Source of the DNA: Deltaproteobacteria bacterium
GTDB lineage: Bacteria > Myxococcota_A > UBA9160 > SMWR01
Direction of reading: 5' to 3'
DNA length: 64,000 bases
Assembly (NCBI GenBank): GCA_032128375.1
Contig: JAQBGU010000107.1
Location: 7,879-71,878, forward strand
Under the pieces are notes generated by a model, which worked only from the letters and a program-made list of their open reading frames with translations, had not been told where the DNA came from and made no database searches. Shown in pieces: positions 48,165 through 50,127 of the stretch; position 1 is the first letter of the stretch, and each line of letters begins with the position of its first letter. The position numbers and the translations under genes were made by a program.

Positions 48165-50127
48165 ATGGCTGACGTCGGAGGCTACGCCCTTCGCTTTGCA
48201 CTGATGATCGCGACGCTCGGCTTTGGCACTGCGATATATGCCGGCACGCAACGAAAAGCCGAGTGGACCCGAGTTTCGGAGCGAAGCCTCTGGCTCGTGT
48301 TCGGCTGCGCAACGCTGGCGATCCTCGCGTTGCTCAATGCGTTCGCAACCTTCGACTACGGGCTCGCGTACGTCGCGCAGCACTCTGCTCGCAGCATGGC
48401 AATCCAATACCGGCTGAGCGCGCTATGGGGCGGTCAAGCCGGCTCACTGCTGCTGTGGTTGTGGATGCTATTGGCCTACGGCTCTGTGTGCCTCTGGTTC
48501 AACCGCGACAAGAACCGAACCTTGATGCCCTGGGTCGTCGCGGTGCTATTGGCCAATGCGATTTTTTTTTCTGGTGTTGGTCAACTTCATCACCGACCCG
48601 TTCGAACGACTGGCTCCCGCCGATGTCGCGTCGGACGGGGCGGGCTTGAACCCACTGCTGCAACACCCGGTGATGATGATTCACCCGATCATGCTGTACA
48701 CCGGATTGGTCGGATTCGTGATCCCGTTTGCGTTTGCGTTCGCCGCGTTGGCAACCGGCGAGCTAGGGACCCATTGGTTTCGCACGACGCGTCGCTGGAC
48801 GCTGTTCCCGTGGTTGTTTCTGAGCATCGGGATCATGCTCGGCGGGCGCTGGGCATACGAAGTGCTCGGTTGGGGCGGCTATTGGGCGTGGGACCCGGTC
48901 GAAAACGCATCCTTCATGCCGTGGCTACCCGCGACGGCATTCCTGCATTCGGTGATGATCCAGGAAAAGCGCAACATGTTGAAGACCTGGAACCTGTTGC
49001 TGATCGGTCTCACCTACACGCTGTGTTTGTTCGGAACATTTCTCACCCGCAGCGGAATCGTTCAATCGGTGCACGCGTTCGCGCAATCGCCCATCTTTGT
49101 GTCGGTGTTCCTCGGCTATGTGCTGGTATCGGCCGCAGTTTTTCTGATCGCCCTGTTTCTGCGCCGAGGCGAAATCCGCAGCCCCAATCGGATCGAGTCC
49201 TATGTGTCTCGCGAGGCGAGCTTTCTGCTCAACAACTGGGTGTTCATTTCGCTGCTGCTGTGGATCTTCACCGGAACCTTGTTCCCGGTCGTGTCCGAGG
49301 CCGTGCAGGGCGACCGCATCGCTGTCGGCCCGGGGTTCTTCCCGATCATGGCGGGGCCGCTCGCGCTGTTTCTGCTGCTGTTGACCGGCATCGGCCCGTT
49401 GATTGCCTGGCGACGCGCATCTCCATCGAGCTTGAAGAAGCAGTTCCGATGGCCCGCGCTGACGGGCCTGGTCATCGCCGGGTGTGCGATCGCATTTCTG
49501 GGGGCGAGCGCGGACTTCTACCCCGTACTGGTTTGGGGGCTCGGTTCGTTCGCTGTCGCGACGATCGTGCAGGAGTACTGGCTGGCGATTCGGGCGCGGG
49601 TTCGCAAGGGACAGGAAAACACACTGCAGGCATTTCGGGCGCTGCTGCGCAAGAACCAACAGCGCTACGGCGGCTACATCGTACACCTCGGCGCCGTGCT
49701 GATCATCGTCGGGATGGCGGGGTCGGTGTATGACGACGAGCGCCTGGAAAACCTGAAGACGGGTGGCGAATTCGAGATCGGCGCCTACCGGCTGCAGTAT
49801 CTCACCGCGAACGCGATTCCCGAGCAGCATTACGGCGGTGCCATCGCGCGACTCGCGCTCTACCGAGACGATCAGCCACTGGCCGTAATGACTCCCGAGA
49901 AGCGGATGTACTGGCTCGAGGAGCAACCGGCTTCCATACCGTCGATTTATTCAACGCTCCGAGAGGACCTCTACGTAACGCTGACTGCCATCGAGTCCGA
50001 CGGTTCAGCCACATTCAAGGTCTACTGCAACCCGCTGGTCAACTGGATTTGGTTCGGCGGATTGATCTTCGTGCTCGGTTCGATCGCAGTCATGTGGCCG
50101 CACCCGGACCGAAAACCCGCGCAATGA
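48165..50127 (+). pseudogene. ccmF: Cytochrome c heme lyase subunit CcmF, reading frame broken at a T9 run
   Basis: ORF 48165.. encodes the CcmF N-terminus up to ...LLANAIFF. ORF 48556..50127 continues as FFFLVLVNFITDPFERL... including the WGGYWAWDPVEN WWD motif. The two frames join if one T is removed at 48562-48570. Confidence 0.85.
48562..48570 (+). other. T9 homopolymer at the ccmF frame junction
   Basis: Sequence reads gcg a ttttttttt ctg. Skipping one T joins ...ANAIFF to LVLVNF.... Confidence 0.9.

What the first reader, a model, noticed from the sequence alone, without database searches (positions are those of the whole stretch)
48562..48570. ccmF reading frame broken in a T9 run: error, phase switch or recoding site
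The CcmF N-terminal 135 codons and the remaining approximately 520 codons are in different frames and meet exactly at a(t)9c. Removing one T gives ...LLANAIFF-LVLVNFITDPFERL..., a seamless CcmF. A T9 tract is conspicuous in this high-GC genome.

Three explanations are possible:
- a homopolymer sequencing or assembly error;
- a slipped-strand phase-variable on/off switch for cytochrome c maturation;
- transcriptional slippage or +1 ribosomal frameshifting on UUU-UUU-UUU.

The downstream genes X, ccmA and ccmB are translationally coupled, so the frame status of ccmF matters for the whole operon.
Basis: partly seen in the sequence, partly recalled or inferred. Interest (0 to 1): 0.65.

Follow-up and report, generated by a model that had tools for sequence, protein, structure and literature searches.

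The report
One extra T breaks ccmF here
The cytochrome c maturation gene ccmF is split in this sequence by one extra T in a run of nine, but two other assemblies of the same bacterium have eight Ts and an intact gene, so the break is most likely an assembly error or a one-off slip.

Summary
An a(T)9c run at 48562-48570 is the exact point where ccmF switches from frame 0 (codons 1-135) to frame +1 (518 codons). Removing one T gives a seamless, full-length 653-aa CcmF.

The break is private to this assembly:
- A Logan assembly of Illumina run ERR5010721 matches the window with 0 mismatches over 8,680 bases. Its single gap is at the tract, where it has T8.
- MAG GCA_032128195.1, 99.9% identical, also has T8. 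It encodes exactly the protein obtained by restoring the window.

Relatives at 91-94% protein identity write the same Ile-Phe-Phe-Leu as ATC TTC TTC/T CTG, so the tract is not a conserved recoding signal. Both halves of the gene are under strong purifying selection (dN/dS 0.04-0.13). Nothing else in the 64 kb is frame-broken at a homopolymer. The window's only other run of 8 or more (G8, intergenic) also differs between assemblies, and there the MAG is the outlier.

Best reading: the organism's ccmF is an ordinary intact gene with an in-frame T8, and the ninth T is a homopolymer length error. Less likely, it is a sporadic slippage variant. A T8/T9 phase switch cannot be excluded without reads, but nothing specifically supports it. 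Programmed frameshifting is not supported. Interest is low.

The parts
48562..48570 (+). T9 homopolymer, the site of the frame break. The in-frame state is T8 (ATT TTT TTT CTG = Ile-Phe-Phe-Leu).
   Evidence: T8 is found at the same place in L087/L088 (MAG GCA_032128195.1) and in L089 (Logan ERR5010721).
48165..48569 (+). ccmF codons 1-135 (frame 0), the N-terminal membrane helices.
   Evidence: dN/dS is 0.05-0.13 against relatives.
48571..50127 (+). ccmF codons 136-653 plus the stop (frame +1). Contains the WWD motif WGGYWAWDPVEN and the CcmF_C domain.
   Evidence: dN/dS is 0.04-0.055.
48165..49733 (+). The literal frame-0 reading: 135 true CcmF residues followed by 387 out-of-frame residues, ending about 390 nt before the start of X.
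   Evidence: This product is not in the public protein collection.
48556..50127 (+). The 523-aa ORF (MRFFFLVLV...) that a gene caller reports for the broken gene.
   Evidence: The exact product P0122 is on record from a single NCBI contig of 149,209 nt.
47604..48053 (+). ccmE (149 aa), upstream gene of the operon. It is the Cys-type variant (…VLAKCPSKF…).
50124..52052 (+). Gene X (642 aa, no family match except a weak C-terminal zinc ribbon). Its start overlaps the ccmF stop as ATGA.
52001..52777 (+). ccmA (258 aa). Overlaps the end of X by 52 nt.
52774..53430 (+). ccmB (218 aa). ATGA overlap with ccmA.
53527..54246 (+). ccmC (239 aa).
38284..38291 (+). G8 run, intergenic. It is the only other homopolymer of 8 or more and serves as a control: the window and two Logan assemblies have G8, the MAG has G9.

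Best explanation
The organism's ccmF is an ordinary, intact, functional System I heme lyase gene. In this lineage, codon choice has produced an in-frame T8 run (ATT TTT TTT CTG). The ninth T in this window is a one-base length error private to this assembly. The likely causes are a sequencing, library-PCR-stutter or assembly-path artefact at a long homopolymer. It does not represent how the gene is built or expressed. Shown: T9 breaks the frame, T8 restores it, and the same strain carries T8 elsewhere. Inferred: the extra T arose in the data rather than in the cells.
For: (1) L089, a contig from Illumina run ERR5010721, matches window 40290-48969 with 0 mismatches and one gap, which is T8 versus T9. 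The sister contig L094 carries a TruSeq adapter remnant, which shows the run is Illumina.
(2) MAG GCA_032128195.1 (L087/L088) is 99.875% identical over 14.4 kb. It has T8 and encodes P0121, which is identical to the window's T8-restored protein.
(3) The broken 523-aa product is on record from only one contig in the whole collection.
(4) The only other run of 8 or more in the window (G8) also differs by one base between assemblies. There the MAG is the outlier against three G8 calls. One-base miscalls at long runs are therefore a feature of these assemblies.
(5) There are no other indels in the roughly 28 kb (34455-62218) covered by same-population contigs, apart from a 14-nt repeat copy-number difference and the unaligned ends of the two MAG contigs. 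No other frame switch occurs at any of the 33 homopolymers of 6 or more.
(6) There is no decay. dN/dS is 0.04-0.13 on both sides of the tract, and the allele is otherwise identical to the intact one.
(7) CcmF is required for c-type cytochrome maturation in System I organisms, so a fixed knockout is a priori unlikely (established knowledge; see also PMC9084895, where deleting ccmF2 abolishes holo-cytochrome).
Against: No reads were available, so T9 could be the true majority state in the sample from which this contig came. The rest of the window is very clean, with all 6- and 7-mers in the compared region concordant. This is therefore not a generally error-prone long-read assembly. In deep short-read data, a consensus error at an 8-mer is uncommon. 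Finding both T8 and T9, and both G8 and G9, among assemblies is also what genuine hypermutable tracts would produce.
Confidence: 0.64

Rival explanations
1. A genuine but sporadic replication-slippage mutant. In the sample behind this contig, a T8-to-T9 insertion allele was common enough to be assembled. It is a very recent loss-of-function or leaky allele, not an evolved device. Some full-length CcmF could still be made. RNA polymerase slippage on a 9-T run could yield U8 transcripts. Ribosomes could also shift +1 on UUU-U before the rare UCU codon, or shift -2 in tandem on U9.
For: T8 and T9 alleles sit on otherwise identical haplotypes. Runs of 9 A or T are the classic slippage-prone and hypermutable length in bacteria, and disrupted ORFs with such runs are known (PMC1088944). 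A frameshifted tssM is rescued by transcriptional slippage at a poly-A run (PMC4256274). The frame-0 codon after the run, UCU, is only 4% of Ser codons. The window is otherwise clean, which argues against random assembly noise.
Against: The allele is seen in only one contig. Two other assemblies, one from the same run series, have T8. A frameshift in a gene under dN/dS of about 0.05 should stay at very low frequency. The frame-0 reading adds a 387-residue nonsense tail and uncouples X-ccmA-ccmB translation, so the allele should be costly.
Confidence: 0.25
2. An adaptive phase-variable (contingency) switch. The T8/T9 tract toggles cytochrome c maturation on and off, or high and low, in subpopulations of this Myxococcota lineage. 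The G8/G9 tract may be a second such locus.
For: Both runs of 8 or more in the window show length polymorphism among assemblies of one population. The tract was created by three adjacent synonymous C-to-T changes in a 62% GC genome that prefers TTC (71%) and ATC (76%).
Against: The tract is absent from all close relatives, so it is not a maintained feature. dS against those relatives is 0.6-0.9, so three synonymous changes in a row are unremarkable. The same in-frame T8 arises by chance at this conserved Phe-Phe site in three distant genomes, L023, L029 and L049. From general knowledge, housekeeping respiratory biogenesis genes are not the class that carries contingency tracts, and 8-9 T is short for efficient switching. 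T9 was seen once.
Confidence: 0.07
3. Programmed recoding. T9 is the true genomic state, and full-length CcmF is normally made by programmed transcriptional slippage or by +1 or -2 ribosomal frameshifting at the U run.
For: A 9-T run is long enough for transcriptional slippage (PMC1088944). A perfect tRNA-Phe re-pairing is possible for +1 or tandem -2 shifts (sequence). The 120 nt downstream fold better than shuffles, z = -3.1.
Against: The same strain has T8 in frame. Orthologues lack the run. There is no SD-like element upstream and no frame-0 stop at the site, since frame 0 stays open for 387 codons. The downstream fold has no covariation support (covariation term +3), and its core hairpin is equally present in relatives without the tract. 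Gene-wide z-scores are otherwise unremarkable.
Confidence: 0.02
4. A natural split of ccmF into two functional genes, as in archaeal ccmF1/ccmF2 or plant mitochondrial ccmFN/ccmFC.
For: An ATG lies at 48556, 6 nt before the run, and opens the 523-aa ORF that retains the WWD motif and CcmF_C. Split CcmF genes exist in Methanosarcina (PMC9084895).
Against: The known archaeal split separates the N-terminal segment, which carries the catalytic residues, from the C-terminal segment, not the first 135 residues. Here the N-terminal piece would carry a 387-residue out-of-frame tail. No SD precedes ATG 48556. The same strain has an unsplit gene.
Confidence: 0.01

Closest known systems
Homopolymer-length errors in draft and metagenome-assembled genomes
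   Same: It is a single-base indel, located exactly in the longest mononucleotide run. It breaks an otherwise perfectly conserved essential gene. It is absent from independent assemblies of the same strain. A second long run also disagrees between assemblies.
   Different: The rest of the window shows no indel noise at 6-7-mers. The error, if it is one, is isolated rather than part of a generally noisy assembly. The sequencing platform of this assembly is unknown.
Rescue of frameshifted genes by transcriptional slippage at runs of 9 or more A or T (Baranov et al. 2005, PMC1088944; Citrobacter tssM, PMC4256274; Thermus dnaX)
   Same: It is a run of nine T in the sense strand at the junction of two frames of one gene. 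RNA polymerase slippage could in principle restore the frame in a fraction of transcripts.
   Different: In the documented cases, the run and the out-of-frame arrangement are the stable genomic state and are conserved between strains or homologues. Here the same strain carries the in-frame T8 and orthologues lack the run.
prfB-type programmed +1 ribosomal frameshifting
   Same: The direction needed is +1. The P-site codon allows perfect re-pairing (UUU to UUU), and a slowly decoded frame-0 codon follows (rare UCU).
   Different: There is no frame-0 stop codon, no upstream SD-like stimulator, and no conservation of the site.
Phase-variable contingency loci (simple-sequence on/off switches of host-adapted bacteria)
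   Same: A mononucleotide tract inside the 5' third of a coding region, with two length states observed.
   Different: The gene class (respiratory housekeeping), the short T tract, the lack of conservation of the tract, and a free-living high-GC lineage all differ. The variation cannot be separated from error with the data at hand.

Membership tests
CcmF/NrfE heme lyase (System I cytochrome c maturation) | Full-length Cytochrom_C_asm plus CcmF_C domain architecture | tested here: met
   The T8-restored protein hits PF01578 (2e-34) and PF16327 (8e-60), both above Pfam cut-offs. It covers TIGR00353 positions 1-574 of 578, but at 445.8 bits it is below that model's curated cut-off of 569.
CcmF/NrfE heme lyase (System I cytochrome c maturation) | End-to-end similarity to a solved CcmF, and presence of the WWD motif | tested here: met
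   Residues 4-647 align with residues 23-649 of 6ZMQ chain A, E = 3e-95. WGGYWAWDPVENASF is conserved.
CcmF/NrfE heme lyase (System I cytochrome c maturation) | Operon context with ccmE and ccmABC | tested here: met
   The order ccmE-ccmF-X-ccmA-ccmB-ccmC is found in the window and in relatives.
Programmed transcriptional slippage site | Run of about 9 or more A or T at the frame junction | tested here: met
   T9 at 48562-48570. The length criterion comes from PMC1088944.
Programmed transcriptional slippage site | Run and out-of-frame ORF arrangement conserved among strains or orthologues | tested here: not met
   Same-strain assemblies have in-frame T8. Relatives use ATC TTC TTC/T. Of 89 family loci, none is shifted at this site.
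Programmed transcriptional slippage site | Heterogeneous run length in mRNA, with full-length protein made from out-of-frame DNA | not testable with these tools
   Needs RNA-seq or proteomics.
Programmed +1 ribosomal frameshift (prfB-like) | Frame-0 stop or strongly limiting codon in the A site, plus an SD-like stimulator just upstream | tested here: not met
   Frame 0 continues for 387 codons. Only a rare UCU codon follows the run. No GGAGG-like element lies in the 25 nt upstream.
Programmed +1 ribosomal frameshift (prfB-like) | Shift site conserved in orthologues | tested here: not met
Phase-variable contingency locus | Tract-length polymorphism within one strain or population | tested here: inconclusive
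   T9 is in the window, and T8 is in the MAG and in Logan ERR5010721. This cannot be distinguished from a miscall without reads.
Phase-variable contingency locus | Tract maintained by selection in related lineages | tested here: not met
   The tract is absent in relatives at 91-94% identity and in both JGI hits. dS of 0.6-0.9 makes its origin by neutral synonymous change unremarkable.
Pseudogene (decaying gene) | Additional lesions or relaxed selection | tested here: not met
   There is a single indel and no stops in the restored frame. dN/dS is 0.04-0.13 on both sides of the tract. The sequence is identical to the intact allele apart from the extra T.

The most novel reading that the evidence does not exclude
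The T8/T9 run is a real hypermutable switch. A subpopulation of this uncultured Myxococcota turns down System I cytochrome c maturation, together with the translationally coupled X-ccmA-ccmB genes, by gaining one T. Residual CcmF would come from RNA polymerase slippage on the U9 run. The intergenic G8/G9 tract would be a second such locus.
Probability: 0.07. Interest if true: 0.5.

Novelty: not a real feature. Interest (0 to 1): 0.1.

Why it matters
The main value is as a correction. Taken at face value, this assembly would be annotated as lacking a functional CcmF. Metabolic reconstructions would then wrongly infer loss of c-type cytochrome maturation in this lineage. The intact T8 allele in the same population shows the pathway is complete. 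It is also a clean worked example of how to handle such cases: a frame break at the longest homopolymer of a region should be checked against independent assemblies before recoding or phase variation is proposed. If read data did show a stable T8/T9 mixture, it would be an unusual case of simple-sequence switching in a respiratory housekeeping gene of a free-living bacterium. Nothing here points that way specifically.

Tried and rejected
1. The broken products were looked up as exact proteins. The 523-aa ORF and P0122 returned no retrievable contig, and the 522-aa frame-0 product and a T11 (654-aa) version are not in the collection. No second T9 contig could be found.
2. Look-ups through CcmC, CcmE, X and the 202-aa gene next to the G tract gave ten same-population loci from nine distinct contigs. 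Of those contigs, only the MAG contig (L087 and L088 are overlapping slices of it) and L089 reach the T tract. One 'similar place not shown' for L089 could not be retrieved.
3. The single JGI metagenome scan, with a degenerate pattern allowing 0-3 extra bases, found only two relatives. Both are in frame and have no T run.
4. The genome-contig scan returned relatives of 61% identity or less and not the source genome.
5. A literature search for the run and assembly accessions found nothing, so the sequencing platform of the window's assembly remains unknown.
6. The downstream RNA structure was tested as a frameshift stimulator. It has z = -3.1, but there is no covariation and the hairpin is kept in relatives without the tract. 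It was rejected as a dedicated signal.
7. The second 'frame switch' flagged at a T6 (33151) is an ordinary gene boundary.
8. The split-gene idea was rejected (see rival explanations).

Full report
**What is in the sequence.** The window reads ...GCC AAT GCG A-TTTTTTTTT-CTG GTG TTG..., with nine T at exactly 48562-48570. A frame-0 ORF starts at ATG 48165. After the run it continues as nonsense to 49733. A frame +1 ORF runs from 48556 to the stop at 50127. Deleting one T joins codons 1-135 to 518 further codons and gives a 653-aa protein reading ...LLANAIFFLVLVNFITDPFERL.... That protein has full-length Cytochrom_C_asm and CcmF_C domains. It covers nearly the whole NCBIfam CcmF/NrfE model, although its score is below that model's curated cut-off. 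It aligns end to end with the solved Thermus thermophilus CcmF, 6ZMQ. T9 is the longest homopolymer in the 62% GC window; the next is a G8 at 38284-38291. Composition alone gives a 9-mer of T or A in 7 of 100 shuffles. The run is therefore locally conspicuous but would not be rare at genome scale.

**Operon context.** The genes are ccmE (47604-48053), ccmF, an unknown 642-aa gene X (50124-52052), ccmA (52001-52777), ccmB (52774-53430) and ccmC (53527-54246). ATGA stop/start overlaps join ccmF/X and ccmA/ccmB, and X and ccmA overlap by 52 nt. A ribosome staying in frame 0 would terminate about 390 nt before X.

**Close relatives.** Proteins at 91-94% identity (P0001-P0003) are intact at 656 aa. 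Their DNA encodes the same Ala-Ile-Phe-Phe-Leu as GCG ATC TTC TTC CTG, or TTT for the second Phe in one lineage. Across the whole gene, the only frame-breaking indel between the window and three relatives is one column at the run. A degenerate-pattern scan of JGI metagenome contigs, allowing 0-3 extra bases, found two more relatives. Both have ATC TTC TTC CTG and no extra base. The T run is therefore specific to this population. It equals three synonymous C-to-T changes plus one extra T. With dS of 0.6-0.9 to those relatives, three adjacent synonymous changes are unremarkable. The genome uses TTT for 29% of Phe codons and ATT for 21% of Ile codons. In a survey of 89 CcmF loci the Phe-Phe pair is almost invariant. 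The same in-frame T8 arises independently in three distant genomes (L023, L029, L049), and no locus is shifted.

**The same population in other assemblies.** This is the decisive evidence.
- An exact-sequence look-up showed that the T8-restored 653-aa protein exists in the public collection (P0121). The broken 523-aa product (P0122) is on record from a single 149-kb NCBI contig, presumably the window's own.
- P0121 is encoded on contig JAQBGZ010000144.1 of MAG GCA_032128195.1 (L087). That contig is 99.875% identical to window 38166-52542 and has T8.
- A contig assembled by Logan from run ERR5010721 (L089) matches window 40290-48969 with zero mismatches and a single gap, which is T8 instead of T9. 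A sister contig from that run begins with a TruSeq adapter remnant, so these are Illumina data.
- The window's exact X protein occurs in runs ERR5010711, ERR5010721 and ERR5010722, so the window's strain is the one in that run series.

Two independent assemblies of the same organism are therefore in frame, one of them indistinguishable from the window apart from this base.

**Controls on sequence quality.**
- The G8 run lies between the stop of one minus-strand gene (38399) and the start of the next, so it cannot be read against a frame.
- The MAG has G9 there. The window and two Logan contigs (L093, L094) have G8. Both runs of 8 or more in the window therefore disagree by one base between assemblies, with a different assembly as the outlier each time.
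- Elsewhere in the roughly 28 kb (34455-62218) covered by same-population contigs, there are no indels other than a copy-number difference in a 14-nt tandem repeat and the unaligned ends of the two MAG contigs.
- A test of all 33 homopolymers of 6 or more for a coding-frame switch recovered the T9 site and one other candidate. That candidate proved to be a normal gene boundary.
- The restored ccmF has dN/dS of 0.05-0.13 upstream of the run and 0.04-0.055 downstream. Neither half shows decay.

**Recoding signals.** The shift needed is +1 or -2.
- On AUU UUU UUU UCU, tRNA-Phe can re-pair perfectly after a +1 slip. A tandem -2 slip is also perfect. The following frame-0 codon, UCU, is rare at 4% of Ser codons.
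- No frame-0 stop and no SD-like element lie upstream.
- The 120 nt downstream fold better than shuffles, z = -3.1, which is at the extreme of the operon-wide distribution.
- The alignment gives an unfavourable covariation term, and the core hairpin is equally present in relatives with no T run. It is not a dedicated stimulator.
- Nine T is the classic length for RNA polymerase slippage (PMC1088944), and frameshifted genes can be rescued that way (PMC4256274). A real T9 allele would therefore probably be leaky. In documented programmed cases, however, the run and the out-of-frame layout are the stable, conserved state, and here they are not.
- A natural split gene is also excluded. The archaeal ccmF1/ccmF2 split falls elsewhere (PMC9084895), the N-terminal piece would carry 387 nonsense residues, and the same strain has an unsplit gene.

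**Verdict.** The organism's ccmF is an ordinary intact gene with an in-frame T8. The ninth T is private to this assembly.
- Homopolymer length artefact from sequencing, library stutter or assembly path: about 0.64.
- Genuine but sporadic replication-slippage allele captured in one sample, possibly leaky: about 0.25.
- Evolved phase switch: about 0.07.
- Programmed recoding or a split gene: about 0.03 together.

Only reads can separate the first three; the test is set out under next steps. The finding is of low interest as biology. Its use is as a warning that this assembly's apparent ccmF defect should not be read as loss of cytochrome c maturation.

Noticed in passing
window 38284-38291: An intergenic G8 run (C8 on the minus strand, about 180 nt upstream of the 202-aa gene that starts at 38106). 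It is G9 in MAG GCA_032128195.1 but G8 in two Logan assemblies. Both Logan contigs also end within about 30 nt of it.
   Followed up: yes
window 60224-60265: A 14-nt tandem repeat, CATCCACTCACGAG, is present in 3 copies, ending 8 nt before the ATG (60274) of a gene with a weak AurF-family hit. The MAG contig L085 has 5 copies. This is either a copy-number polymorphism or an assembly collapse in a 5' leader.
   Followed up: partly
window 47604-48053: CcmE is the Cys-type variant. It reads ...VLAKCPSKFE, where E. coli has the heme-binding His (HXXXY). The usual Tyr is replaced by Phe (CXXXF). Close relatives share CPSKF. Among the 80 genome loci, the motif search found C...Y 12 times, C...F twice and C...W once. 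The CXXXY variant is known from archaea and Desulfovibrio (PMC9084895), but the Phe in place of Tyr was not pursued.
   Followed up: partly
window 50124-52052: Gene X (642 aa) sits between ccmF and ccmA with overlapping stop and start codons. It is conserved at that position in relatives (624-652 aa). It has no Pfam or NCBIfam match apart from a weak C-terminal zinc ribbon. No ccmH or ccmI was seen among the ccmE-ccmC operon genes scanned; the rest of the window was not searched. X is a candidate lineage-specific accessory factor of this variant System I.
   Followed up: no
L087 14379-14880 and L085 1-271 (window about 52235-52542, inside ccmA): Two contigs of MAG GCA_032128195.1 both end inside ccmA, near the Walker B coding stretch (VLLDEPF). 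Their terminal 502 and 271 nt do not match the window. These are probably chimeric contig ends at a conserved ABC-ATPase motif. The Logan contigs and the window read straight through.
   Followed up: partly
window 48348-49867: The Logan contigs recovered from three runs stop or start inside ccmF (ends at 48348 and 48969; starts at 49653, 49660 and 49867). None of those retrieved spans 48969-49653. The cause (coverage, microdiversity or a repeat) is unknown.
   Followed up: no
window 48571-48690: The 120 nt just downstream of the T run fold unusually well (-49.8 kcal/mol, z = -3.1). There is no covariation support, and the core hairpin is conserved in relatives that lack the run.
   Followed up: partly
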